A DNA stretch of 64,000 bases from assembly GCA_963786945.1 (NCBI GenBank), contig CAWBAO010000001.1, positions 65,976 through 129,975 of the forward strand, in the 5' to 3' direction. The notes below the pieces were generated by a model that was not told the DNA's origin, searched no databases, and saw only the letters and a program-made list of their open reading frames with translations. Both the position numbers and the translations under genes were made by a program. This stretch comes from an uncultured delta proteobacterium. GTDB taxonomy: Bacteria > Myxococcota > Myxococcia > Myxococcales > Anaeromyxobacteraceae. Position 1 is the first letter of the stretch. Each line of letters opens with the position of its first letter. Shown in pieces: positions 14,941 through 42,735 of the stretch.

Positions 14941-15981
14941 GTGCTTGGCCCCATGCTCGGCATCCTGCTCGTCAACCTCGGCACGCCCGACGACCCCTCC
15001 CCGCCCGCGGTGCGCCGCTACCTCCGCGAGTTCCTCTCCGATCCGCGGGTCGTCGACATCAACCCGGTGGCCCGCAAGCTCCTGCTGGAGCTGGTGATCC
15101 TGCCCCGGCGGCCCCGGGTCAGCGCCGCCGCCTACGCCAAGATCTGGAGCCGCGAGGGGTCGCCGCTGCTGGCCTTCTCGCGGGCCCTGGAGGCCAGGGT
15201 GCGCGAGGCGCTCGGGCCCGGGCACCTCGTCGAGCTGGCGATGCGCTACGGCCGCCCCTCCATCCCCGACGCGCTGGAGCGGCTGCGGGCCGGTGGCGCC
15301 GGCCGGCTGGTGGTGGCGCCGCTCTACCCGCAGTACGCCTCGTCGTCGACCGGCTCCTCGCTCGAGGCGGTCTTCGCGGCGCTGGCCCGCCAGCCGGTGG
15401 TGCCGGCGGTGTCGGTGCTGCCCCCCTTCTACGACGACCCGGGGTTCATCGCCGCCTTCGCCGCGGTGGGCGCGCCGGTGGTGGCGCGCGAGCAGCCCGA
15501 CCACGTCCTCTTCAGCTTCCACGGCCTTCCCGAGCGCCACGTGCAGGCGTCCGACCACTCCGGCCGCCACTGCCTCCAGTCGGCCGGGTGCTGCGACGTG
15601 ATGGGCGTGGCCAACCGCGACTGCTACCGGGCCCAGTGCTTCGCCACGGCGCGGGCGCTGTCGGCCCGGCTCGGGCTGCAGCCCGGGACCTGGAGCGTCA
15701 GCTTCCAGTCGCGCCTGGGCCGGACCCCCTGGATCAAGCCCTACACCGACCTGCGGCTCGAGGAGCTGGCGCGGGAGGGGAAGCGGCGGCTCTGCGTCTT
15801 CTCCCCGGCCTTCGTGGCCGACTGCCTGGAGACGCTGGAGGAGATCGGGATGCGCGCCGAGGAGCAGTTCAAGGCGGCCGGCGGCGAGCGGCTCGCCCTG
15901 GTCCCCTCGCTCAACGCCAGCGACGCCTGGGTCGAGGCCCTGGTCGCGATGCTGCGCCGCACCGCCGGGGCGCCGGCGTAG
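14941..15981 (+). CDS. hemH: ferrochelatase
   Basis: It has ILLVNLGTPD, YLREFLSDPRVV, PLYPQY and SFHGLPE motifs. The start is either GTG 14941 or ATG 14953. Confidence 0.95.
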   Translation: MLGPMLGILLVNLGTPDDPSPPAVRRYLREFLSDPRVVDINPVARKLLLELVILPRRPRVSAAAYAKIWSREGSPLLAFSRALEARVREALGPGHLVELAMRYGRPSIPDALERLRAGGAGRLVVAPLYPQYASSSTGSSLEAVFAALARQPVVPAVSVLPPFYDDPGFIAAFAAVGAPVVAREQPDHVLFSFHGLPERHVQASDHSGRHCLQSAGCCDVMGVANRDCYRAQCFATARALSARLGLQPGTWSVSFQSRLGRTPWIKPYTDLRLEELAREGKRRLCVFSPAFVADCLETLEEIGMRAEEQFKAAGGERLALVPSLNASDAWVEALVAMLRRTAGAPA

Positions 15982-16035
15982 GAGGCCGTCGAGAGCGCCG
16001 GTCCGAAGCACCGTCAGGTGACGGCTCGTGGCGAG

Positions 16036-18464
16036 TTACTGGATCGTCCCCGTCGAGGCCGCGAGCTTGTCGATGAGCGGCTGCATGACCGACGCCGGGA
16101 CGCCGGACCTGTTCATCGAGGACCCGACGAAGGTGGTCATGGCGGCGGCGAGGCCGGTCGTCCCCGCCGTCGACTGCATCATGGTCCCGCCGCCCATCAT
16201 CCCGCCGCCCATGCCGCCCATGGCGATGGAGGTGGAGCCCATCATCCCGTTCATGAGGCCATCCGAGGCGTCCTTCATCATCGCGGTCACCACCCCCGAG
16301 GAGGAGACGCTCATCCCGATGCTCTTGGCGTACTGCGACATGGCGGCGATGGACATCCCGTAGTCCGTCTGGTCCTGGGTCGCGCCCGAGCCAGAGCCGG
16401 CCATCGCCGGGTCCATCGGCGACGTCATGAGGATGTCGCCGGCCATGAAGTAGTTGCCCACCGCCGTGTTGGCCGCCCCCGCGTTCGCCGCGGTCATCCC
16501 GCCGGACATGTTCTGCGCCATGGCCTGGGCCATCGACGTGAGCGGCGTCACCTGGACGCCGGTCGTCGTCGAGCCGGCGGAGACCGACGGAACGCAGCTC
16601 GTCAGCACGTCGCCGGACTGCATGATCATGTTGGTCCCGGTGGCCGGGTCCATGAAGGTCCCGCCGGTCATCTGCAACATCACCGTCCCTGCGTAGGCGC
16701 CGAGCGGGACGCTGAAGTTGCCCGTGGCGTCGACGGGGCTCGAGCCAATCATCGGCCCCATCGTGCCGTTGGTCACGGCGTAGGCCGTCACGGTCCCCGA
16801 GGACGTCCCGCCCATGAAGGCGGTGCCGGTCATGGTCCCGTGGGGGCTGACCGTCGCCACCGGCGCCGGGGAGCTGCCCGTTCGACCCCGCGAGCTGGGT
16901 CATGAGCGCCTGCATGTCCGCTGCCGTCACGCCGGACTTGTTCATCGCGGAGCCGACGAAGGTGCCCATCGCCGTGGAGAGGCCGGAGGTGCCGGCCGTG
17001 GACGACATCATCCCGCCCATCATTCCGCCCATGCCCGCCATCGAGATGGCGGTCCCGCCCATCATCCCGTCCATGACGCCGTCCGAGGCGTCGTTCGTCA
17101 TGGCGGTGACCATCCCGGAGGACGACGTGTTCATCCCGATGGTCTTCGCGTACTGGGACATCGCCGCGATGGACATGCCGTAGTTCTTCTGGTTCTGGGT
17201 GGCGGAGGTGCCGGAGCCCACGACCATCGGGTTCATGGGCACGGTGTGCAGGATGTCGGTCACCGAGAAGTAGGTCCCGACCGCGGTGTGCGTGGTGGCG
17301 ATGTTGGCGTCGGTCATGCCGCCGGTCATGGCCTTCGCCCTGGCGCACGCCATGCTGGTCAGCGGCGTCATCTGGATGCCGGTCGTCGTCGAGCCGGCGG
17401 CGACGGCCGGGACGCACGCCACCATCACGTCGCCGGGGAGCATGGACATCGCCGTGCTCGTCGCCTCGTCGGTGTACGTCCCCCCCGTCATCTGGAGCAT
17501 CACGGAGCCCGCGTAGGTTCCGAGCGGCACGCTGAAGTGGCCCATGCCATCGGTGGTCGCGCTGCCGAGCTGGGCCCCCATCATGCCGTTCGCGATGGCG
17601 TAGGCGGTCACGGTGGCGCCGCCGACCGGCCCCTTCATCGCGGTGCCGGACATCATCCCGGTCGTGGTCCCCCCGCTGCCGATCTGGCCGCCCGAGCCGT
17701 TGAGCTTGTTCACCAGCGGCCTGCATGTCCGTCATGGTCACGCCGGACTTGTTCATCGCCGAGTTGACGAACGCGGACATCGCCGTCGCCAGCCCCGTCG
17801 TCCCGGCGGTGGCCTGCATCATCGTGCCGCCCATCATCCCGCCACCCATGGTGAGGGAGGACGTGCCCATCTTGCCGTCCATGACGCCATCCGAGGCGTC
17901 GTCCATCATGGCGGTGACCACGCCCGAGGAGGAGGGCATCCCGATGGTCTTCGCGTACTGGGACATGGCCGCATTGGCCATGCCGTAGTTCTTCTGGTCC
18001 TGCGTCGCGCCGGTCCCCGAGCCGGCCACCATGGGGTTCATCGGCACGGTGTGGAGGATGTCGCTCACCGAGAAGTAGGCGCCCATGTCGGCGTTCGCGG
18101 CGACCATGTTGGCGTCGGTGATGCCCCCGCTCATGTGGTGCACGCGGGCGTGGGCCATCGAGGTGACCGGGGTGACCTGGATGCCTGAGGTCGACCCGCC
18201 CACGGCGGCCGAGGGAATGGCGCAGGCCATCACGTCCCCGGGCTGCATGGTCATCGTCGTCCCCGTGGCCTCGTCCGTGTAGGTGCCACCGGTCGCCTGG
18301 AGCATCATCGGGCCCGAGTAGGTGCCGACGGAGACCGAGAAGTTCCCCGTCGAGTCGGTGGTGCCCCCGCCGATCTGCGCGCCCATGGTGCCGTTGGTGA
18401 CGGCGTAGGCGGTGACGGTGGCGCCGCTCACGGGGCCTTTCACGACGGTGCCGCTCACGGTGTA
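16036..18464 (-). repeat. three tandem, diverged Met-rich modules of about 285 aa (about 860 nt each)
   Basis: Each module has GATVTAYA..NG.MG...TD..G.FSV..G.Y.G...LQ.TGG.Y.DEATG, then ILHTVPMNPMV.GSG..ATQ.Q.NYGM..AAMSQYAK.IGM, then a MGGMGG/MMGG tract and AMNKSGV...MQ. The copies are clearly diverged at the amino-acid level. Confidence 0.85.
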
Positions 18465-19226
18465 GGCGCAGGTCACCGCGATGCTCGCCACGTCACCGCT
18501 CCCGACGGTCCCGCTTCCGCCGCTCACCGAGCAGGTCTGCGACGGCGACGCCGGCTGGGTCTTCACGCTCACGGCGTAGGCGCTGCCCGACGCCATCGCG
18601 CTGCCGAACGCGAACGTGGTGGCGCCGGCCGGGACCGCGAGGTCCGCCTGACCCGCCATCGAGAGCACGAGCCCGGTGCCGGCGAGGCCGCTCACCGTGC
18701 CACCGACCAGGAACTGGCTGGTCGAGCAGTTCACCACGACGTTCATGACGTTGGCTCCGCCCATCATTCCGGTGCCCCCGCCCACCGTGCAGGTCTGCGC
18801 CGGACTCGAGGGCTGCGTCGCCACGGTCACCGCGTAGGAGGTGCCGCTCGGCATCGGGCTCGGGAAGGCGAAGGTCGTCGCCCCGGACGTCACCGGCAGG
18901 TTCGACTGGCCCGGCATGGCGAGCGCCAGCCCCGAACCGAGAAGGCCGACGACCGTCCCACCCACCGTGTACGAGCTGGTGACGCACGTGACGGCCACGT
19001 TCGTCATGTTTCCGCTGCCCATCATGCCGGTCCCGTTCGCCACCGTGCAGGTCTGCGCGGGAGACGTCGGCTGGTGAAAGACGGTCACGGCGAACGCGGC
19101 GCCGCTCGCCATGGGCATGCTGAAGGCGAAGGCGCCGTTGGCCGAGATGGCCAGGTCGTTCCCGCCGTTGTTCCGCAGCACCAGGGTGGCGCCGGTGGCC
19201 AGTCCGGTCACCGTGCCGCCCACCGT
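18465..19226 (-). repeat. three tandem Ig-like/beta-sandwich repeats of about 85 aa inside the lipoprotein
   Basis: The pattern GGTV.GL.G.GL.L....L.V..GATTFAF....SG.AYAV.V.TQP.SPAQTC.V..G.G occurs three times. Confidence 0.8.
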
Positions 19227-19483
19227 TCCGGAGCCCGGCGGCGTCGTGGTGCCGCTGCTGCTTCCGCCGCCACAGGCGAACAGGAGGAGGGAGGAACCAA
19301 CCACCGCCACCAGCGTCGAGGTTCGGATCTTCATGTGATGCCTTTCAGTCGGGCCGACCACCGCCCGCTCAGCCGACATGGGCGGGCCTATATGCGGCGG
19401 GGAGCGCCAGCGCCCGGTTCGATGGAGCCCGTCCGGCTCCCCGGAACCCGCGGACCGCACCCGGGTGGAACACCCGGCACGGG

Positions 19484-19507
19484 ACAAAGTTCCCGCTGGA
19501 GGGAACC
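19484..19507 (-). terminator. possible weak intrinsic terminator after the GH15 gene
   Basis: On the minus strand GGTTCCC-TCCAGC-GGGAACT is followed by TTGT, about 42 nt after the TAG at 19549. The stem is short and the U-tract is short. Confidence 0.3.
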
Positions 19508-19548
19508 ACACGGGATCGCGACGACAAGCGTCTGCTTCCTCCCGGCAC

Positions 19549-21915
19549 CTACCCGACCTTCACGGAGAAGTCGGCGCCTTCCCAGCGCCCCGCCTCCGGC
19601 CAGAAGAAGGTGAACGTCACCTCGAAGCCTGCGGCCAGCGCCTCGGTGGGCAGGTCGGCGACGTGCACCCCGAGCCCGGTGGCGCGGGTCGGGAGATCGC
19701 GGACCGTCCTCCAGCCGTCCACGCTCCAGTGCGCCAGGGCCGGGGCCAGGGTCTCCAGCCGCAGCGTCCGGCCCGCGGGCATCTGGCGGATCTTGTGGTT
19801 GAAGCGCCAGGCCACGTGGCTCGAACGGGTCCCGCGCCTCACGTAGCGCTCCAGGGGCTGCGGCGGCGTGTCGAAGACCGCCCCGTCCGCCAGCGAGCGC
19901 ACCAGCTTCAGGTGCTCGGCGTGGGCCCACACCAGCGGCATGGCCGAGCCGGCCGGGCGGCCGAAGAAGAGCTCCCGCCCGGGGATGTCGGCCGAGTCCC
20001 AGGACTGCTCGGGCAGGAGGCCGCCCTCGCCGGCCAGCGCCTCCATGGTGGCGAGGAGCCGCTCGGCCTCGGCCCGGTCGCCCGCGGCGAGGGCGTGCAT
20101 GGCCCGCTCCCCGGTGAGCAGCGGCCAGGCCCGGCCGATCCCGGTGCCGTCGAAGGGGCTGCCGTCCTCGTGCTCGCCGTAGCCGTCGCCGTTGTAGCGG
20201 TGCCAGGACGGGCCGACGGGCGTCTCGACCCGGAGCAGCGCGTCGATGGCCCGGACCGTGTTGCGCACCCGCGGATCGGCGGCGGAGCGCAGGCCGAAGC
20301 GGACCAGCGCCAGCGCGTCGGCGCTCACGATGGCGTCCGACCGGCCCACCGCCTCGGCGAGCGGGCGGTTCTTCAGCGCCACGGCCTGGTCGCCCTCCTC
20401 GACGCCCGCCGGGGCGATGCGCACGTAGTAGCCGTCGACGCCGACCCGGCGGGCCAGCTCGGTGCCCTGCACGTAGAGCCAGCGCTCGATGCGGTCGTTC
20501 CAGGCGTCGGCGGTCTCGCGCAGGTAGGGGGCCAGCCCCGGCTCACCGGCCAGCTCCGCGAGGTCGGCGGCGGCCAGCAGCGCCGCGATCTCGGCCGCCA
20601 GCGTGAAGGGCGTGTACCCGCCGTCCTCCTCCCAGCGGTCCTGCTGGGTGACCGGGCCGTTGCGCACCAGGTAGGAGGCCGCCCGCCGGACCATGGGCCA
20701 GAAGCCCCGCGCCGAGAGGTCGCCCTCCCGGAGCGCCCCCTCGCGCCGCGCCAGGTCGACGAGGAGGATGGGCAGCGCGGTCTCGTCCATCTGCACGCCC
20801 TCCCAGTAGGGGCGCCCCTCGGCCCACATGTTCTGCGGCCAGTGGCCGTCCTGGTCCTGGGTGGCCGCCAGGTAGACCAGGGCCTCCCGCGCCTCCGCCC
20901 TGGCCCCGGCCGCGAGGAAGCCCCCGGCCGCCTCGACCATGTCGCGCGGCCAGACCAGGTGGTAGCCGCCCAGGTCGCCGTCCCCCTTGGAGAAGCCCCA
21001 CGGCACCGCCAGGCTCGCCAGGATGGCCCCGGGGAGGCGCTTCGACTGGTGGACCTTCACCACCATGGCGCTGGTGGCGAAGCGCGGCCGGTCGGGGAAC
21101 GGCCGCAGGCCCTCGTGCCACCTCAGCCAGGGGCCGGTGTAGGCGTCGAGGAGCGCGTCGAAGCCCTCGGCGAGCGCCGCCCGCGCCTGGTGCGCCGCCT
21201 CCTCGGGGCTGCGCCCCCAGGCGAGCGCCAGGACCAGCTCCCCGCCGCGGGTCTCCAGCTCGCCCGAGAGCGCCACGTTGCCGTCCCGGGCGCTGTCGAA
21301 GCGCTCGCGGAGCTCGCCGTCGCGCAGGAGCTCGTGCCACCCGTCCGACGACCCGACGAAGCCCGCCGAGCGCGCCCGGAAGCCGGTGCTGCTCAGCAGG
21401 CACAGGGCCTGGCCATCCCGCGACGCGAACAGCGCCGGCTCGCCCCTGGCGTCCCCCACCCACCCGCTGTTGCCGGCGCCGTGGTTGTCGAGGTGCGGCG
21501 CCAGCAGGGCGAAGACCCGGTAGTCCTCGAGCCGCCCGCGCAGCGGCGTGAACCGGATCCGCTGGAGCACCACCGGCCGCTGCGGGTCGGCGATGATCTC
21601 CTTCTCGATGCGGTACCTCCCCTGGGTGCAGGTGTTGGTGAGCCGGTAGGCCGGGACCCCGGGCCGGGGGCAGGTGATCTCGTGGGTGGCGTGGCGCTTC
21701 TCCTCCGAGAAGAAGCCCCCCGGCGCGGTCACCACCAGCCCCAGGTCGCGCGTGGCCGCCTGGTCCATGCGCGGCGCGTAGACCTCGTTGAGGATCCCGT
21801 GCGAGATGGTGAACCAGATGGCGCTCCCGCCGAGCGCGGTGCCGACGCCGCTCTTGCTCGCCGAGGTCCAGCGCGCGGGGATTCCAGGCCAGCCGGGGGC
21901 GGGGCGCTCGTCCAT
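19549..21915 (-). CDS. GH15 glucoamylase / glucodextranase-like glycoside hydrolase
   Basis: This is the in-frame tail of ORF 19549..22338. It has an N-terminal beta-sandwich plus an (alpha/alpha)6 region (LVWPRD, WEE..G.T.FT). The ATG at 21915 is preceded by AGGAG, 8 nt after the SDR stop. Confidence 0.92.
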   Translation of the reverse strand: MDERPAPGWPGIPARWTSASKSGVGTALGGSAIWFTISHGILNEVYAPRMDQAATRDLGLVVTAPGGFFSEEKRHATHEITCPRPGVPAYRLTNTCTQGRYRIEKEIIADPQRPVVLQRIRFTPLRGRLEDYRVFALLAPHLDNHGAGNSGWVGDARGEPALFASRDGQALCLLSSTGFRARSAGFVGSSDGWHELLRDGELRERFDSARDGNVALSGELETRGGELVLALAWGRSPEEAAHQARAALAEGFDALLDAYTGPWLRWHEGLRPFPDRPRFATSAMVVKVHQSKRLPGAILASLAVPWGFSKGDGDLGGYHLVWPRDMVEAAGGFLAAGARAEAREALVYLAATQDQDGHWPQNMWAEGRPYWEGVQMDETALPILLVDLARREGALREGDLSARGFWPMVRRAASYLVRNGPVTQQDRWEEDGGYTPFTLAAEIAALLAAADLAELAGEPGLAPYLRETADAWNDRIERWLYVQGTELARRVGVDGYYVRIAPAGVEEGDQAVALKNRPLAEAVGRSDAIVSADALALVRFGLRSAADPRVRNTVRAIDALLRVETPVGPSWHRYNGDGYGEHEDGSPFDGTGIGRAWPLLTGERAMHALAAGDRAEAERLLATMEALAGEGGLLPEQSWDSADIPGRELFFGRPAGSAMPLVWAHAEHLKLVRSLADGAVFDTPPQPLERYVRRGTRSSHVAWRFNHKIRQMPAGRTLRLETLAPALAHWSVDGWRTVRDLPTRATGLGVHVADLPTEALAAGFEVTFTFFWPEAGRWEGADFSVKVG

Positions 21916-27041: not shown

Positions 27042-27182
27042 GGAGGTGGTGAGGATGATAGCGCGATCGGCGCCGCCGCCGCGCCTCGTCGGGGGCGCCC
27101 CGCTTGATGCCGGCAGCGCGTCCCGCCTCGTCGTATGGGGTGGTCGGCCGCAGGCCGGTGCACGTCACCCGAGGAGCGGAGC

Positions 27183-27992
27183 ATGAGACCGTATCGTGTC
27201 ACCCACCACATCAGCCTCCGCAAGTACGACCCGCGCGACACCGGCGGCTACCAGGCCCGGGAGCAGGCGGCGGAGCGCACCGAGCAGCTGCGGCAGAAGC
27301 TCGACGCGCTCCAGGAGCGGCTCTACGCGGAGGGCCGCCGCTCGGTCCTGGTCGTCCTGCAGGGCATCGACACCGCCGGCAAGGACGGGACCATCCGGCA
27401 CGTCATGAGCGGCGTCAACCCGCAGGGCTGCGTGGTCACCTCCTTCAAGCCGCCCACCCCCCTGGAGGCGTCGCACGACTTCCTGTGGCGCGTCCACGCC
27501 GCCTGCCCGCCGCGCGGCTACATCGGCATCTTCAACCGCTCCCACTACGAGGACGTGCTCGTCACCCGGGTCCACGGCACCATCACCGACCGCGAGGCCC
27601 ACCGCCGCCTGGACGAGATCCGGGAGTTCGAGCAGCTGCTCACCGAGCAGGGCACCCGCATCCTGAAGTTCTTCCTCCACGTCTCCCGGGAGGAGCAGCG
27701 GGAGCGGCTGCTGGCCCGGCTCGACGACCCCGCCAAGCGCTGGAAGTTCAGCCCGCAGGACCTGCGGGAGCGGGGCTACTGGAAGGCCTACCAGTCGGCC
27801 TTCGAGAAGGCCCTCGCCGCCACCAGCACCGACGCCGCCCCCTGGTACGTGGTCCCGGCCGATCACAAGTGGTACCGGGACCTGGTGGTGGCCGGCCACC
27901 TGGTGCGGGCCCTCGAGGAGATGGATCCCCGTCCGCCCACGCCGGCCGGGATGGACTGGAAGAAGCTGCGCCGGCGCCTCGAGGAGGCCTAG
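27183..27992 (+). CDS. ppk2: polyphosphate kinase 2 family protein
   Basis: It has a GIDTAGKDG Walker-A-type motif, FNRSHYEDV and PWYVVPAD.KWYR. The ATG at 27183 follows GAGGAG. Confidence 0.92.
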   Translation: MRPYRVTHHISLRKYDPRDTGGYQAREQAAERTEQLRQKLDALQERLYAEGRRSVLVVLQGIDTAGKDGTIRHVMSGVNPQGCVVTSFKPPTPLEASHDFLWRVHAACPPRGYIGIFNRSHYEDVLVTRVHGTITDREAHRRLDEIREFEQLLTEQGTRILKFFLHVSREEQRERLLARLDDPAKRWKFSPQDLRERGYWKAYQSAFEKALAATSTDAAPWYVVPADHKWYRDLVVAGHLVRALEEMDPRPPTPAGMDWKKLRRRLEEA

Positions 27993-30440
27993 GTGCCGGC
28001 CCCCGACGCCGCCGCCGGCCTCGCCGCCGCGTCCCTGCCGGACACCCTGGCCGCGCTCCGCGTCGACCCGGCCGCCGGGCTGTCGCGCGCCGAGGTGGAG
28101 GCCCGCCGCCGGCAGCACGGCTACAACGAGGTCGCCGAGCGGCGGGGCCACCCGGTGCTGGCCTTCCTCGGCAAGTTCTGGGGCCTGTCGGCGTGGATGC
28201 TCGAGCTCATCATCCTGCTCTCCGCCTTCCTGAAGAAGTACTCGGACCTGGTCGTGGTGAGCGCGCTGCTGGTGATCAACGCGGTGCTGAGCTTCACCCA
28301 GGAGCGGCGGGCCGCCGGCGTGGTGGCCACGCTGCAGCGCCGGCTGCAGGTCGGGGCGCGGGTGCTGCGGGAGGGGGCCTGGGAGGTCGTGCCGGCCCGG
28401 GAGCTGGTCCCCGGCGACGTCATCCGGGTGCGCTCCGGCGACTTCATCCCCGCCGACGTCAAGCTCCTCTCCGGCACGGTCAGCGTCGACCAGTCGGCCC
28501 TCACCGGCGAGTCGCAGGACGTCGAGGTGGCGCCCGGCGGGATCCTCTCCTCGGGCGGGGTGGTCCGCCGCGGCGAGGGCAATGGGGTGGTGCTCCTCAC
28601 CGGCGCCAGCACCTCCTTCGGCCACACCACCGAGCTGGTCCGGGAGGCCCGCCCCCGGCTGCACATCGAGGCGGTCATCGCCAGGGTGGTCCGCTGGCTC
28701 TTCGTGATCGTCGGCGTGCTCCTGGCCGTGGTGGTGGCGCTCTCCCTCGCCCGCGGCGCCCCGCTGCTGGAGATGATCCCCCTCGTGCTCGTCCTCCTCA
28801 TGAGCGCCGTGCCGGTGGCCCTCCCGGTCATGTTCACCGTCAGCATGGCGGTCGGCTCCCGCGAGCTGGCCCGCCACGGGGTGCTGGTGACCCGGCTGAG
28901 CGCCGCCGAGGACGCCGCCACCATGGACGTGCTCTGCGTCGACAAGACCGGCACCGTCACCATGAACCAGCTGGCGGTGACCGGGGTGACCCCGCTGGAC
29001 CAGGCCACCGACCTCGACGTGCTCCGCGCCGGCGCCAGCGCCTCCCAGGAGGCCAACCAGGACCCCATCGACCGGGCCTTCCTGGCCGCCGCCCGGGAGC
29101 GGCGGGCCTTCGAGGGCGTCCCGCCCGTCACCCCCATCTCCTTCAAGCCCTTCGACCCGCTGACCCGGCGCACCGAGGCGGTGGTCGAGCAGGGCGGCCA
29201 GCGCCAGCGGGTGGTGAAGGGCGCGGTGCGCCCCGTGGCCGAGGCCTGCGGGCTCGCGCCCCGGGACGTCGAGGCGCTCGAGGCCCGCGCCGTCGAGTCC
29301 GCCGCCCACGGGTACCGGACGCTGGCGGTGGCCGCCGGGCCCGAGGCCGGCGCCGCCCGGCTGCTGGGGCTGGTGGCGCTCTACAATCCGCCGCGCCCCG
29401 AGGCCGGCGCCCTCATCGCGGCCCTGCGCGACCGGGGCGTGCCCGTCAAGATGCTCACCGGCGACGCCCTGCCGGTGGCCCGGGAGATCGCCCGGGGCGT
29501 GGGGCTCCCCAACATCCGGCGGGTCGCCGACCTCAAGGCGGCCAGCGCCCAGCCCGGCAACGAGGCCGTCGACCTGCTGGCCGGTGCCGACGGCTTCGCC
29601 GAGGTCTATCCGGAGGACAAGTTCATCGTGGTGAAGCACCTCCAGGCCAGCGGCCACGTCACCGGGATGACCGGCGACGGCGTCAACGACGCCCCGGCCC
29701 TGCGCCAGGCCGAGGTGGGGATCGCCGTCAGCAACGCCACCGACGTGGCCAAGGGGGCCGCCAGCGTGGTCCTGACCGAGCCCGGGCTCACCAACATCCT
29801 GGCCCTGGTCGAGCAGGGGCGCTCCATCTACCAGCGCATCCTCACCTGGATCGTCAACAAGGTGAGCCGCACCATCCTCAAGTCGGCCTTCGTGGCCATC
29901 GCCTACGTGGTCACCGGCCGCTTCGTGGTCTCGGCCTTCGCCATGCTGCTGCTCACCTTCATGACCGACTTCGCCAAGATCGCGCTCTCCACCGACTCGG
30001 TGCGGGCCTCCCGGCGGCCGGAGACCTGGAACATCGGCGGCTTCATCTCGGTGGCGGTGGTCCTGGGCGTGGCCATGGTCGCCGAGGCCCTCCTCCTGCT
30101 GCGCCTGGCCTGGACGCCCTTCGGCCTGGGGGCCGAGCACGGCCCGCTCCACACCTTCAGCTTCCTGCTCCTGCTCTACCTGGCGGTCTTCTCGGTGATC
30201 TCGGCGCGCGAGCGCGGCCACTTCTGGGCGACGCCACCCAGCCGGACGCTCGCCGCCGCGCTGGCGGTGGAGGCGGCGGTCGGCGCGGCGGTCGCGCTGG
30301 TGGGGCTGCCGGGGCTCCCACCGCTGCCCGGGTGGCAGGTGCTGGCGGTCATCGGCTCCACGGCCCTGGTCTCCCTGGTGGTCAACGATGCGCTGAAGGT
30401 GGCGATGATCCGGTGGCGCGTCCCCTCGGCGGCCGCCTAG
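27993..30440 (+). CDS. P-type ATPase, plasma-membrane H+-ATPase (P3A)-like
   Basis: It has DQSALTGES, CVDKTGTVTMNQL and MTGDGVNDAPAL motifs and is 815 aa. The GTG start directly abuts the PPK2 stop. Confidence 0.93.
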   Translation: MPAPDAAAGLAAASLPDTLAALRVDPAAGLSRAEVEARRRQHGYNEVAERRGHPVLAFLGKFWGLSAWMLELIILLSAFLKKYSDLVVVSALLVINAVLSFTQERRAAGVVATLQRRLQVGARVLREGAWEVVPARELVPGDVIRVRSGDFIPADVKLLSGTVSVDQSALTGESQDVEVAPGGILSSGGVVRRGEGNGVVLLTGASTSFGHTTELVREARPRLHIEAVIARVVRWLFVIVGVLLAVVVALSLARGAPLLEMIPLVLVLLMSAVPVALPVMFTVSMAVGSRELARHGVLVTRLSAAEDAATMDVLCVDKTGTVTMNQLAVTGVTPLDQATDLDVLRAGASASQEANQDPIDRAFLAAARERRAFEGVPPVTPISFKPFDPLTRRTEAVVEQGGQRQRVVKGAVRPVAEACGLAPRDVEALEARAVESAAHGYRTLAVAAGPEAGAARLLGLVALYNPPRPEAGALIAALRDRGVPVKMLTGDALPVAREIARGVGLPNIRRVADLKAASAQPGNEAVDLLAGADGFAEVYPEDKFIVVKHLQASGHVTGMTGDGVNDAPALRQAEVGIAVSNATDVAKGAASVVLTEPGLTNILALVEQGRSIYQRILTWIVNKVSRTILKSAFVAIAYVVTGRFVVSAFAMLLLTFMTDFAKIALSTDSVRASRRPETWNIGGFISVAVVLGVAMVAEALLLLRLAWTPFGLGAEHGPLHTFSFLLLLYLAVFSVISARERGHFWATPPSRTLAAALAVEAAVGAAVALVGLPGLPPLPGWQVLAVIGSTALVSLVVNDALKVAMIRWRVPSAAA

Positions 30441-41477: not shown

Positions 41478-42735
41478 ATGGCTGAGCCGGCGCGGGGCCG
41501 GCCCCTGGACGGGCCAGGCGCGCTGGCCGAGCGGCTGGCCCGGGTGCGGGCCCAGACCTCGCGGCTGTGCGCCCCCCTGGCCGTCGAGGACTACGTGGTC
41601 CAGTCGATGCCGGACGCCAGCCCGGCCAAGTGGCACCTGGCCCACACCTCCTGGTTCTTCGAGACCTTCGTGCTCGGGCCGCACCTGCCCGGGTTCCAGC
41701 CGTGGCGGGCCACCTGGGCGCCGCTCTTCAACTCCTACTACGTGGCCGCCGGTCCCCGGCATCCGCGCGCCGAGCGCGGGCTGCTGACGCGCCCCACCGT
41801 CGCCGAGGTGCAGGCCTACCGGGCCTGGGTGGACGAGCGGATGCAGGCGTTCCTGGCATCGCCCGCGGCCGATCGGCCCGAGGTGGCCGCGCTGGTGGAG
41901 CTGGGGCTGCACCACGAGCAGCAGCACCAGGAGCTGCTGCTCACCGACCTCCTGCACGCGTTCTCGATGAACCCGCTCAAGCCGGCCTACCTGGAGGCGA
42001 CGCCGCCGCCCTCGACCGCCGCGCCGCTCCGCTGGCTGGAGCGGCCGGGCGGCCTGGTGCGGATCGGCCGGGAGCAGGCGGGATTCGCCTTCGACAACGA
42101 GCGCCCGGCGCCACCTGGTGCACCTCGAGCCCTTCCGGCTCGCCTCGCGGCCGGTCAGCGCCGGCGAGTTCGCGGAGTTCATCGCCGACGGGGGCTACCG
42201 GCGGCCCGGGCTGTGGCTGTCCGACGGCTTCGCCGCCGCGCAGGCGGGCGGCTGGCAGGCCCCGCTCTACTGGGAGCGCCGCGACGGTGCGTGGCGCCGC
42301 TTCACGCTCCACGGCGACGTCGCGGTCGACCCGGCCGCACCGGTCACGCAGGTGAGCTACTACGAGGCCGATGCCTTCGCCCGCTGGGCCGGGGCGCGCC
42401 TGCCGACCGAGGCCGAGTGGGAGAGCGTGGCCGGGGAGCAGCCGGTGGCCGGCCAGTTCGTGGAGGACGGCGTCCTGGTGGCGGTCGCGGCGGGCGGTGC
42501 GGCCCCCCTCTTCGGCGGCGCCTGGACCTGGACGGGGAGCCCGTACGTCGCCTACCCCGGCTTCACCCCCGCGCCCGGGGCCGTGGGCGAGTACAACGGC
42601 AAGTTCATGGTGAACCAGCTGGTCCTGCGCGGCGGCTCGTGCCTCTCGCCTCGCGACCACCTGCGCGCCACCTACCGCAACTTCTTCCCGCCACACGCCC
42701 GCTGGCAGCTCGCGGGCATCCGGCTGGCCCGCTGA
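41478..42735 (+). pseudogene. egtB: ergothioneine biosynthesis sulfoxide synthase EgtB, interrupted by a single-base frame break near 42108
   Basis: The N-terminal half (frame of 41478) has the DinB-like KWHLAHTSWFFETFVL and runs to ...FAFDNERP. The C-terminal half (frame of 42118) continues RHLVHLEPFRLASRPVS...YNGKFMVNQLVLRGGS...TYRNFF (FGE-sulfatase domain). Skipping one G at ~42108 joins them. Confidence 0.85.

What the first reader, a model, noticed from the sequence alone, without database searches (positions are those of the whole stretch)
16036..19334. Giant lipoprotein with three Ig-like repeats and three diverged ~285-aa modules that are extraordinarily methionine-rich
After the lipobox come three repeats of about 85 aa, each with paired Cys. 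The sequence then repeats a module of about 285 aa three times. By my count the middle module has about 35 Met in about 280 residues (roughly 12%). These include MGGMGGMMGGMM-type tracts and many MxM/MxxM spacings, and there are almost no charged residues. In a genome this GC-rich, the AT-containing ATG codon is disfavoured, so the enrichment must be selected.

Established knowledge: Met-rich MxxM/MGGM tracts bind Cu(I)/Ag(I) in CopA/PcoA-type oxidases, CusF, PcoE and Ctr1. Surface Met can also serve as a sacrificial oxidant sink repaired by Msr systems.

There are no cop/cus genes next to it, so the function is open.
Basis: partly seen in the sequence, partly recalled or inferred. Interest (0 to 1): 0.65.

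Follow-up and report, generated by a model that had tools for sequence, protein, structure and literature searches.

The report
Methionine-recoded tandem lipoprotein, frameshifted here
This locus encodes a large envelope lipoprotein from an undescribed family in which about 40% of the normally Leu/Ile/Val core positions of a folded domain have become methionine. It may be a soft-metal (copper) sponge in anaerobes, but in this sequence the gene is split by two single-base insertions that are probably sequencing errors.

Summary
The methionine enrichment is real. The three modules carry 10.4-12.9% Met, against 1.8% in the other genes of the window.

The "giant lipoprotein" is not one ORF here. 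The span is 3,299 nt and the modules lie in three frames, separated by two single-base insertions at about 17717 and 16856. Intact homologues of 1,082-1,115 aa (80-89% identity) lack both insertions. Modules 2 and 3 still show purifying selection. An unrelated gene, egtB, carries a third such insertion at 42108, so assembly error is the most likely cause.

Each module is about 270 aa and is predicted with confidence as a transthyretin-like β-sandwich followed by six helices (pLDDT 94). It belongs to a large, uncurated lipoprotein N-terminal domain family of 2,237 clusters. Ordinary members have 0-3% Met. A single monophyletic clade has 7-16% Met; it occurs in Anaeromyxobacter-like bacteria, Nitrospirae and Desulfobulbales. 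This clade has 29 conserved Met columns, mostly in place of core Leu/Ile/Val/Phe, plus an inserted MGGMMGG loop.

MxM spacing is depleted and MxxM spacing is not enriched. His is scarce, and the genomic context is not conserved.

The function is unproven. My best guess is an O2-independent thioether Cu(I)/Ag(I) sponge (about 0.35). The rivals are an oxidant sink or a plastic hydrophobic binding module.

The parts
19272..19334 (-). Start codon, signal peptide and lipobox (MKIRTSTLVAVVGSSLLLFAC, Cys21). A GAAAGG Shine-Dalgarno-like motif lies 6 nt upstream of the ATG.
   Evidence: Read from the sequence and its translation. A Cys after a signal peptide, followed by a Gly-rich stretch, is conserved in the homologues P0001, P0002, P0007, P0011, P0046 and P0112 and in single-module proteins.
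18981..19226 (-). β-sandwich (Ig-like) repeat 1, with Cys pair C96/C117 and a GTGMMG motif; 6.1% Met.
   Evidence: Homologous ordinary repeats average 0.56% Met.
18726..18980 (-). β-sandwich (Ig-like) repeat 2, with Cys pair C182/C203; 5.9% Met.
   Evidence: AlphaFold2 gives pLDDT 96.3, all β, with nine strands. There is no significant PDB match: the best E-value is 0.047 and TM-scores to pilin and Ig-like sandwiches are at most 0.59.
18468..18725 (-). β-sandwich (Ig-like) repeat 3, with Cys pair C268/C289; 2.4% Met.
17663..18467 (-). Met-rich module 1 (β-sandwich plus helical subdomain). It is in frame A down to about 17718; its last helix and linker continue in frame B.
   Evidence: tblastn 66% identity to module 2; 10.4% Met.
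17717..17718 (-). Frameshift J1: one extra base (GCC[G]CTGGTG on the minus strand) relative to the intact homologues. It shifts the reading frame from A to B inside the conserved C-terminal helix DMQ(A/P)LVNKL.
   Evidence: DNA alignment with L007 (90.5% nt identity) and L006 shows a single 1-nt gap in both homologues.
16857..17662 (-). Met-rich module 2 (frame B). It has 35 Met in 272 aa and contains the MAGMGGMMGGMM loop.
   Evidence: AlphaFold2 gives pLDDT 94.3 and pTM 0.92, with strands over residues 1-98 and helices at 100-111, 118-131, 156-174, 182-192, 226-236 and 247-259.
16856..16856 (-). Frameshift J2: one extra base (GGTGG[C]GAC on the minus strand) relative to the intact homologues. 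It shifts the frame from B to C in the inter-module linker GAGG|(T/A)VSPHG.
   Evidence: DNA alignment. The homologue linkers read QLPGAGGTVSPHGTMTG.
16036..16855 (-). Met-rich module 3 (frame C) and the TAA stop codon (16036-16038).
   Evidence: 12.6% Met.

Best explanation
**Anatomy (shown).** The locus is a stand-alone gene for an envelope lipoprotein. It has a signal peptide and lipobox, three Cys-paired β-sandwich repeats of about 85 aa, and three tandem copies of a domain of about 270 aa. That domain is a transthyretin-like β-sandwich packed against six helices. It belongs to a large, uncurated family that normally sits directly after the lipidated Cys of diverse surface lipoproteins.

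**The Met-rich clade (shown).** The copies here belong to one monophyletic sub-clade. In it, about 43% of the conserved aliphatic core positions of the helical part are Met, and about 28% of those of the sandwich. An MGGMMGG loop has also been inserted.

**State of the gene (inferred).** In this window the gene is interrupted by two single-base insertions. They are most likely assembly errors (about 60%). Otherwise they mark a very recent pseudogenisation (about 35%).

**Function (inferred by analogy, about 0.35).** The intact protein is a thioether-rich binding and buffering module for soft metals, chiefly Cu(I)/Ag(I), in the periplasm or at the cell surface of anaerobes and microaerophiles. 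Clustered Met side chains inside and on the helical subdomain would coordinate the metal without needing O2 or thiols. The three tandem modules would multiply the capacity.

The confidence value given (0.35) is for the functional mechanism; the anatomy and clade assignment stand at about 0.9.
For: **Gene state**
- Intact homologues of 1,082-1,115 aa exist at 80-89% identity and 98-100% coverage.
- The window differs from two of them by exactly two 1-nt insertions.
- Window-lineage substitutions in modules 2 and 3 run 7 N to 15 S, much like the L007 lineage at 10 N to 26 S.
- egtB carries a third single G/C insertion at 42108. Removing it restores a full-length TIGR03440 match of 552 bits.

**Family and clade**
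- 2,237 cluster representatives match at E ≤ 1e-3.
- The ordinary members are fused to PASTA, RCC1, NHL, fn3 or Big_2 domains, and no Pfam model covers the domain itself.
- Met content is bimodal: 105 domains at 0-3%, 199 at 6.7-16%, and none at 4-6%.
- The 29 conserved Met columns are L 27%, I 12%, V 9%, F 5%, A 9% and gap 10% in ordinary members.
- With Met columns masked, all 33 Met-rich domains form one pure neighbour-joining clade among 119 domains.
- The clade is present in Nitrospirae and Desulfurivibrionaceae MAGs of 53-59% GC.

**Fold**
- pLDDT is 94.3. Only the sandwich finds PDB neighbours.

**Metal reading**
- The protein is extracytoplasmic (lipobox).
- From established knowledge, extracytoplasmic Met-rich proteins are mostly Cu(I)/Ag(I) handlers (CueO, CopA/PcoA, CusF, CopC, PcoE/SilE, Ctr1).
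- CopM has been modelled as a 4-helix bundle with Met and His in its lumen acting as a metal sponge (10.1101/013581).
- One homologue lies divergent to an HME-RND efflux operon and a redoxin (L009).
- Another lies beside a second Met-rich lipoprotein with DMDAMMGSMNH-type motifs and about 5 kb from a gene with a faint Cu-oxidase_2 hit (L010).
Against: - No cop, cus or copper-chaperone neighbour is shared by the eleven contexts examined.
- No sequence or fold similarity to any copper-binding family was found.
- There are only 1-4 His per module and no Trp. MxM is depleted and MxxM is not enriched.
- Most conserved Met sit where the ordinary family has buried aliphatic residues. They may therefore be structural rather than metal ligands.
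- The sequencing-error reading cannot be proved without the reads. Four of 94 other Met-rich homologues also carry out-of-frame tails, which could equally reflect real decay.
Confidence: 0.35

Rival explanations
1. Sacrificial oxidant sink. The dense Met residues in the envelope scavenge HOCl, H2O2 or O2-derived oxidants for oxygen-sensitive bacteria and are re-reduced by periplasmic Msr enzymes, as with MrpX/MsrP.
For: - MrpX is a periplasmic Met-rich protein that is oxidised by hypochlorite and recycled by YedY (PMC4436054).
- The Met-rich clade is found in anaerobe and microaerophile lineages.
- A redoxin (AhpC/TSA family) gene lies next to one homologue (L009).
- An ECF sigma factor lies next to a single-module homologue (L011).
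Against: - MrpX is small, 20% Met and 44% charged, and sits in a yedYZ operon. These modules are 5.6-7.3% charged and confidently folded.
- Most of their Met occupy core-type columns, where oxidation would destabilise the fold.
- No msrP, msrQ, msrA or msrB neighbour appears in any context.
Confidence: 0.2
2. Plastic hydrophobic module. Flexible Met side chains replace branched aliphatic residues to give a malleable, polarisable core or pocket, as in calmodulin or the SRP54 M domain. The pocket would bind a hydrophobic or sulfur-containing ligand or a surface (a lipid, a quinone, S0 or a metal-sulfide mineral), or would simply tune the mechanics of a structural stalk.
For: - Met sits at L/I/V/F columns.
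- Met-Met spacing at i,i+4 is mildly raised, consistent with one helix face.
- The ordinary family looks like a generic N-terminal stalk or anchor fused to many kinds of binding domain.
- The host lineages are iron- and sulfur-cycling anaerobes.
Against: - No ligand or partner can be inferred, and the context is not conserved.
- This reading does not explain why the Ig-like repeats and an inserted Gly/Met loop are also Met-enriched.
Confidence: 0.2
3. In this genome the locus is a genuine, recently inactivated pseudogene. Two real frameshift mutations would leave at most a truncated lipoprotein carrying module 1 and a 297-aa out-of-frame tail.
For: - The two insertions are not in homopolymers.
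- Frame A runs on for 297 codons of Arg/Asp/His-rich sequence.
- Four of 94 homologues in other assemblies also have out-of-frame tails.
- Copy number and context vary, which suggests a dispensable and mobile gene family.
Against: - Modules 2 and 3 carry no stop codons or further indels. Their window-lineage substitutions run 7 N to 15 S.
- A conserved housekeeping-type gene, egtB, carries the same kind of single G/C insertion 25 kb away. That points to a systematic assembly error.
- No database protein carries the out-of-frame tail.
Confidence: 0.35
4. Programmed +1 ribosomal frameshifting or transcriptional slippage joins the three frames into one protein.
For: Both shifts run in the same (+1) direction and both lie near module boundaries.
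Against: - There is no slippery or hungry-codon context. GCC-GCT-GGT and GGT-GGC-GAC allow no P-site re-pairing, and no homopolymer is present for slippage.
- Thirteen full-length homologues are in one frame through these sites.
- The frame breaks seen in other homologues fall at different positions.
Confidence: 0.02

Closest known systems
Uncharacterised lipoprotein N-terminal domain family (no Pfam or NCBIfam model): a β-sandwich plus helical domain directly after the lipobox, fused to PASTA, RCC1, NHL, fn3, Big_2 or Flg_new_2 domains
   Same: - Homologous over the full ~260 aa, with HMM E-values down to 1e-48 or better.
- Same position directly after the lipidated Cys in single-module members.
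- Shared invariant D-x-x-D-G-x-x-x-G motif.
   Different: - Ordinary members have 0-3% Met, 7-13% Leu and 7-25% charged residues. They occur once, at the N-terminus of a multidomain protein.
- The clade here has 7-16% Met, 2-6% Leu and an inserted MGGMMGG loop. It occurs alone or as two or three tandem copies.
CopM (DUF305) and other periplasmic Cu(I)/Ag(I) 'sponges' (PcoE/SilE, and the Met-rich inserts of CueO, CopA and PcoA)
   Same: - Extracytoplasmic and Met-rich.
- CopM is modelled as a helical bundle with Met and His pointing into the lumen (10.1101/013581).
- The Gly/Met-rich loop resembles, in composition only, the Met-rich inserts of multicopper oxidases (my own knowledge).
   Different: - No sequence or fold homology.
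- Almost no His.
- No enrichment of linear MxM or MxxM motifs.
- No cop, pco or cus operon context.
MrpX, the periplasmic methionine-rich hypochlorite scavenger (Azospira suillum)
   Same: An exported Met-rich protein whose Met content is its function (PMC4436054).
   Different: - MrpX is small, 20% Met and 44% charged, and is encoded in a yedY1Z1-mrpX operon under SigF/NrsF.
- These modules are folded 270-aa domains with 5.6-7.3% charged residues and no msrPQ neighbour.
Transthyretin-like / CarboxypepD_reg β-sandwich fold
   Same: - Residues 1-98 of the module match transthyretin-like and hydroxyisourate-hydrolase-type sandwiches (Foldseek probability up to 1.0, TMt up to 0.65).
- Some homologues have faint precomputed PF13620 hits.
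   Different: - E-values are only about 1e-3.
- The match covers a third of the module.
- The helical subdomain and the whole-domain architecture have no PDB counterpart (TMq ≤ 0.26).
Csp1/Csp3 copper storage proteins (Cys-lined four-helix bundles) - my own knowledge, not tested here
   Same: Conceptually, a helical core lined with sulfur ligands that could hold many Cu(I) ions.
   Different: - The Csp proteins use Cys thiolates, while this protein would use Met thioethers.
- There is no homology.
- Metal binding by this protein is untested.

Membership tests
Uncurated lipoprotein N-terminal β-sandwich + helical domain family (defined here by the profile built from A1) | Full-length profile match (about 260 positions) to family members | tested here: met
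   2,237 representatives match at E ≤ 1e-3 and 1,168 at E ≤ 1e-10. Ordinary members align over profile positions 2-3 to 250-265.
Uncurated lipoprotein N-terminal β-sandwich + helical domain family | The domain follows a signal peptide and lipobox Cys | tested here: met
   The window has LLLFAC-GGG. Single-module members carry L(A/S)(A/G)CGGGG directly before the domain. Here three Ig-like repeats are inserted between the lipobox and the first module.
Met-rich sub-clade of that family | At least 6.7% Met, with Met at the 29 conserved columns and the inserted MGGMMGG loop | tested here: met
   The window modules have 10.4-12.9% Met. Column analysis is, the bimodal histogram, and the pure neighbour-joining clade with Met columns masked.
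Bacterial lipoprotein (Lgt/LspA substrate) | An n-region with positive charge, a hydrophobic h-region, and a lipobox [LVI][ASTVIF][GAS]C | tested here: met
   MKIRTSTLVAVVGSSLLLFAC was read from the sequence. The Cys is conserved in the homologues. No dedicated predictor was run and lipidation was not tested.
Known copper-binding families (CusF, CopC/PcoC, CopM/DUF305, PcoE/SilE, multicopper oxidase, HMA) | A sequence match to the family model | tested here: not met
   Pfam and NCBIfam scans of the reconstructed protein at E ≤ 1 returned only two sub-threshold, unrelated hits each. The PDB profile search returned no hits at E ≤ 1.
Known copper-binding families | Linear Mets motifs (MxM, MxxM) and His or Trp co-ligands | tested here: not met
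   Over the three modules MxM is seen 3 times against about 11 expected and MxxM 12 times against about 11. There are 1-4 His and no Trp per module.
Known copper-binding families | A cop, cus or pco operon context | tested here: not met
   The window and ten homologue loci share no such neighbour. One locus has an HME-RND operon nearby.
Known copper-binding families | Cu(I)/Ag(I) binding | not testable with these tools
   This needs recombinant protein and metal titration.
MrpX-type methionine-rich oxidant scavenger | A small, highly charged (about 44%), about 20% Met periplasmic peptide encoded with yedYZ (msrPQ) | tested here: not met
   The modules are 270-aa folded domains with 5.6-7.3% charged residues and no msrPQ neighbour.
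Transthyretin-like / CarboxypepD_reg fold (N-terminal third of the module) | A seven- or eight-stranded prealbumin-like sandwich | tested here: inconclusive
   Foldseek probability is up to 1.0, but E is about 1e-3 and TMt is 0.4-0.65. Direct Pfam PF13620 scanning of the reconstructed protein gave no hit.
Ig-like β-sandwich (the ~85-aa repeats) | An all-β sandwich fold similar to solved Ig-like domains | tested here: inconclusive
   The AlphaFold2 model has pLDDT 96.3 and is all β. The best PDB matches are pilin and Ig-like sandwiches, but E ≥ 0.047 and TMq ≤ 0.59.
Programmed +1 frameshift genes (prfB-type) | A slippery or hungry-codon site, with the frameshift conserved in homologues | tested here: not met
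   There is no re-pairing context at either site. The homologues are in one frame. Frame breaks elsewhere fall at other positions.

The most novel reading that the evidence does not exclude
The Met-rich clade is a new kind of metal-storage or buffering domain. An existing β-sandwich and helical-bundle fold would have had its hydrophobic core recoded to methionine so that it can take up several Cu(I)/Ag(I) ions, or other soft-metal ions, in thioether clusters. It would be a Met-based, O2- and thiol-independent counterpart of the Cys-lined Csp copper storage proteins. Anaerobes (Anaeromyxobacter, Nitrospirota, Desulfobulbales) would deploy it in tandem on the envelope, where multicopper oxidases cannot work.
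Probability: 0.2. Interest if true: 0.8.

Novelty: new variant of a known kind. Interest (0 to 1): 0.55.

Why it matters
Copper tolerance in strict anaerobes and microaerophiles is poorly explained, because the classical periplasmic detoxifier (a multicopper oxidase) needs O2. If the metal reading holds, this family would be an oxygen-independent, thioether-based Cu(I)/Ag(I) buffer, built on a principle not seen in solved structures: a core recoded to Met.

Whatever the function, the family is a clean natural experiment in protein evolution. It is a single monophyletic clade in which roughly 30-45% of conserved aliphatic core positions became Met and stayed so across three phyla and a GC range of 53-74%. 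The change therefore runs against mutational bias in the high-GC genomes. The module is small, single-module versions of about 300 aa exist, and it is predicted with high confidence, so it can be taken straight to biochemical tests.

In practical terms, the window contains at least three single-base insertions in coding regions. Any annotation of this assembly should be checked for indel errors.

Tried and rejected
**Searches that found nothing**
- Pfam and NCBIfam scans of the reconstructed protein gave nothing above threshold.
- A PDB sequence-profile search gave no hits.
- Foldseek against the PDB matched only the generic sandwich for the module and gave no significant match for the Ig-like repeat.
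- Exact-sequence look-ups of the window's own ORFs and of A. oryzae P0029 found no record. The source genome and its annotation could therefore not be inspected.
- Two metagenome DNA scans for the J1 site, with or without the extra base, found nothing.
- A protein search with the out-of-frame tail of frame A found nothing at E ≤ 1e-10. No independent record of the frameshift exists.
- The promoter and terminator consensus scan found nothing in 15900-19700.
- A literature search for methionine-rich proteins in Anaeromyxobacter returned no papers.

**Ideas considered and rejected**
- Conserved operon context: eleven loci share no common neighbour.
- Programmed frameshifting: rejected because the sites are not slippery, the homologues are in frame, and breaks in other homologues fall elsewhere.
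- Three separate genes: rejected because modules 2 and 3 would lack signal peptides and homology runs straight across both junctions.
- Low-complexity drift: rejected because of column-wise conservation, purifying selection and a confident fold.
- A second candidate frameshift at about 57750 turned out to be an ordinary boundary between ABC-transporter genes.

**Correction to my own work**
I first placed J2 at the C5 run (16846). The DNA alignment corrected this to 16856. The reconstructed protein used for the searches therefore differs from the true linker by four residues, which does not affect any result.


Full report
**1. What is in the sequence**

On the minus strand, an ATG at 19334 is preceded by GAAAGG 6 nt upstream. 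It opens MKIRTSTLVAVVGSSLLLFAC-GGGSSSG, a lipoprotein-type signal peptide with Cys21. Three repeats of about 85 aa follow. Each has a Cys pair 21 residues apart (C96/C117, C182/C203, C268/C289). Then come three homologous modules, marked by the motif TVTAYA at residues 306, 574 and 847. The period is therefore 268-273 aa, not 285. The modules are 64-68% identical to each other.

The span 16036-19334 is 3,299 nt, which leaves a remainder of 2 on division by 3. The ORF table shows the three modules in three different frames:
- 16830..19511 is genuine protein for about 538 residues counted from the ATG at 19334, then 297 residues of Arg/Asp/His-rich nonsense.
- 15911..17713 carries module 2, then nonsense.
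- 16036..16860 carries module 3.

**2. The frameshifts**

A protein search with a two-base-corrected reconstruction found intact one-frame homologues of 1,082-1,115 aa at 80-89% identity and 98-100% coverage (P0001-P0013). It also found versions without the Ig-like repeats (about 840 aa, e.g. P0046) and an Anaeromyxobacter oryzae entry (P0029).

I aligned the window DNA with the genes for P0001 (L007, 90.5% nt identity) and P0011 (L006). The window shows exactly two 1-nt insertions:
- GCC[G]CTGGTG at about 17717, inside the conserved helix DMQ(A/P)LVNKL.
- GGTGG[C]GAC at 16856, in the linker GAGG|(T/A)VSPHG.

Neither insertion is in a homopolymer, and neither context allows tRNA re-pairing. 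The homologues are in frame at both sites. Four of 94 other Met-rich homologues have out-of-frame tails, but at other positions. Programmed recoding is therefore rejected.

I polarised substitutions using L006 as the outgroup. In modules 2 and 3 the window lineage has 7 nonsynonymous and 15 synonymous changes, against 10 and 26 on the L007 lineage. The regions downstream of the frameshifts have therefore been under purifying selection for essentially all of their history.

A codon-phase scan of the whole window flagged one other anomaly. egtB (41478-42735) is split by a single extra base at 42108 (CCCG[G]CGCC). Removing it gives a full-length EgtB, matching TIGR03440 at 552 bits in one stretch over model positions 2-413.

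That makes three single G/C insertions in 64 kb, two of them in genes that are otherwise well conserved. Assembly indel error is the most economical explanation. I put it at about 60%, with very recent real pseudogenisation at about 35%.

I could not settle this point:
- The window's own ORFs are not in the gene-position index.
- No database protein contains the out-of-frame tail.
- DNA scans of the metagenome collection found nothing.

**3. The methionine enrichment**

Met counts are 28/268, 35/272 and 34/269. The background is 1.83% in 10,298 residues of other high-GC3 ORFs of the window, and the combined binomial P is about 2e-47. Leu is 2-4% and charged residues are 5.6-7.3%. Ig-like repeats 1 and 2 are also enriched (about 6% Met). 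By comparison, 752 homologous repeats from other proteins average 0.56%.

The spacing claim does not hold against composition-preserving shuffles:
- MxM is depleted (3 observed against about 11 expected).
- MxxM is at expectation (12 against 11).
- i,i+4 is mildly raised (17 against 11).

His is scarce (1-4 per module) and Trp is absent.

**4. What the module is**

No Pfam or NCBIfam model matches it, and no PDB sequence matches it. A profile of the three modules, searched against 1.84 billion representatives, found 2,237 clusters at E ≤ 1e-3 and 1,168 at E ≤ 1e-10. These fall into two groups:
- Single-module lipoproteins of about 300 aa, in which the domain follows L(A/S)(A/G)CGGGG directly.
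- Many multidomain proteins in which the domain is N-terminal and is followed by PASTA, RCC1, NHL, fn3, Big_2 or Flg_new_2 domains.

AlphaFold2 on module 2, with an 18-sequence alignment, gave pLDDT 94.3 and pTM 0.92. The model has a β-sandwich over residues 1-98 and six helices over 100-259. Confidence is lower only over the Gly/Met loop. Foldseek against the PDB matched only the sandwich, to transthyretin-like folds, at E about 1e-3 and TMq ≤ 0.26. The overall architecture therefore has no solved counterpart.

One ~85-aa repeat models as an all-β sandwich (pLDDT 96.3) with no significant PDB match. "Ig-like" is acceptable only as a loose description of the fold.

**5. A Met-recoded clade**

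Across 304 domain instances, Met content is sharply bimodal: 105 domains at 0-3%, 199 at 6.7-16%, one at 3-4% and none at 4-6%. This sample is drawn from the top hits of two searches and is therefore biased.

In the Met-rich group, 29 columns are Met in at least 50% of sequences. In ordinary homologues those columns are L 27%, I 12%, V 9%, F 5%, A 9%, M 5% and gap 10% (the inserted MGGMMGG loop), with the rest polar.

I then looked at columns that are at least 70% L/I/V/F/M in ordinary members. In the Met-rich group, Met occupies 43% of these in the helical subdomain (against 5% in ordinary members) and 28% in the sandwich (against 3%).

With all Met-bearing columns masked, the 33 Met-rich domains form one pure clade among 119 in a neighbour-joining tree. 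The clade is not confined to high-GC Anaeromyxobacter-like genomes. Single-module members occur in Nitrospirae MAGs (L001 and L003, 53% GC, 11.7% Met), in a Desulfurivibrionaceae MAG (L004, 59% GC) and in other deltaproteobacterial MAGs.

The enrichment is therefore ancient, inherited, column-specific and maintained against GC pressure. It also changes the picture, from low-complexity metal-binding tracts to a folded domain whose core has been recoded.

**6. Context**

In the window the gene lies between a GH15/glucodextranase gene upstream (same strand, about 215 bp gap) and a convergent ferrochelatase gene. A class III cyclase, an SDR, a DegP-like protease, PPK2 and a P-type ATPase lie further out.

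Ten homologue loci share no neighbour. A few are suggestive:
- L009 is divergent to an HME-RND efflux operon (CzcB-type MFP with Cys/His repeats) and a redoxin.
- L010 sits next to another Met-rich (8.7%) lipoprotein with DMDAMMGSMNH-like motifs.
- L007 is followed 17 bp later by a c-type cytochrome.
- L011 (single module) is next to an ECF sigma factor.

These are anecdotes and do not amount to a pattern.

**7. Mechanism**

These points are shown:
- The architecture, the fold prediction and membership of the family.
- The clade-specific Met recoding.
- Purifying selection.
- An extracytoplasmic lipoprotein targeting signal.

The function is inferred. I favour a thioether-based Cu(I)/Ag(I) binding and buffering role, at about 0.35, for four reasons:
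- Exported Met-rich proteins are overwhelmingly copper or silver handlers (established knowledge).
- CopM offers a precedent for Met and His lining a helical-bundle lumen as a sponge (10.1101/013581).
- Thioethers resist oxidation to disulfides in the envelope.
- The host lineages are anaerobes or microaerophiles, in which Cu(I) predominates and O2-dependent multicopper oxidases cannot act. This last step is inference.

Several facts count against it. There is no copper-gene context and no homology to a copper-binding family. His is scarce and there are no enriched Mets motifs. Most Met also sit at buried-type columns.

The rivals are:
- An MrpX-like oxidant sink (0.2). MrpX is 20% Met, 44% charged and operonic with yedYZ (PMC4436054), which is very unlike these folded, uncharged modules.
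- A plastic hydrophobic ligand- or surface-binding core (0.2).

**8. Novelty and score**

The domain family is uncurated. I found no paper in the library pairing "methionine-rich" with Anaeromyxobacter. The idea of Met-rich envelope proteins is known. A whole-fold Met recoding conserved across phyla, in tandem lipoproteins, is a new variant of that idea. The function is unproven and the copy in this window is disrupted, at least as sequenced. I score interest at 0.55.

Noticed in passing
window 41478-42735 (+), extra base at 42108: The ergothioneine synthase gene egtB is split into two frames by a single extra G/C (CCCG[G]CGCC). Deleting that base restores a full-length EgtB (TIGR03440, 552 bits, model positions 2-413). 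This is a third single-base insertion in the window and suggests assembly indel errors.
   Followed up: yes
window 16022-16360, 16851-17180 and 17704-17985 (+): Antisense ORFs with GC3 above 0.93 lie opposite the Met-rich gene. They arise because the third codon positions coincide in a 74% GC genome. The gene's unusual GC1 < GC2 composition also makes simple frame-plot strand calls fail here.
   Followed up: partly
L010 9545-10096 (+): Directly downstream of the homologue P0112 is a 183-aa lipoprotein (LSLAACGG) with 8.7% Met and motifs such as MQGMGPDMDAMMGSMNH and MSGMGMGGMGSG. It has no Pfam hit. A gene with a faint Cu-oxidase_2 hit lies about 5 kb away.
   Followed up: partly
L009 1-7004: The homologue P0078 is divergent to an HME-RND efflux operon (OEP, ACR_tran, and a CzcB-type MFP with CxEHGVPESxC repeats), two small Cys-rich secreted proteins and an AhpC/TSA-family redoxin. 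A 156-aa His-rich ORF overlaps its start by 4 bp.
   Followed up: partly
L010 7001-9151 (P0112, from a 1.44 Mb contig): Another assembly's copy also has a frameshift, in the β-sandwich of module 3 (…VDATGQLHHPARRL…). In all, 4 of 94 Met-rich homologues show out-of-frame tails, each at a different position.
   Followed up: yes
window 16847-17662 (module 2, residues 191-199); alignment A2: The motif D-x-x-D-G-x-x-x-G (DASDGVMDG here) is invariant across both Met-rich and ordinary family members. It may be a Ca2+-binding or structural turn.
   Followed up: no
L001 4269-5339 (+) and 9005-10792 (+): In a Nitrospirae MAG the single Met-rich module is fused behind an unrelated N-terminal domain of about 325 aa with no Pfam hit. 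A multihaem c-type cytochrome with eight CxxCH motifs lies 3.6 kb upstream.
   Followed up: no
L011 514-1077 (-): The single-module homologue P0128 lies divergent to a CBM48-like gene, an ECF sigma factor gene and a further CBM48-domain gene. This loosely recalls the SigF/NrsF control of mrpX, but it is a single case on a 3.2 kb contig.
   Followed up: no
window 18981-19226 and 18726-18980 (-): Ig-like repeats 1 and 2 carry GTGMMG where ordinary homologous repeats have GSGTVG, and (S/P)(M/P)PM(A/P)SG where the ordinary repeats have TPVASG. The Met recoding therefore extends beyond the 270-aa modules. Repeat 3 is ordinary.
   Followed up: partly
window 27108-30437 (+): A PPK2 polyphosphate kinase gene is followed directly by a P-type cation ATPase gene (Cation_ATPase_N, with no HMA domain, so not a copper P1B-type pump). 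The pair is about 8 kb from the lipoprotein gene.
   Followed up: no
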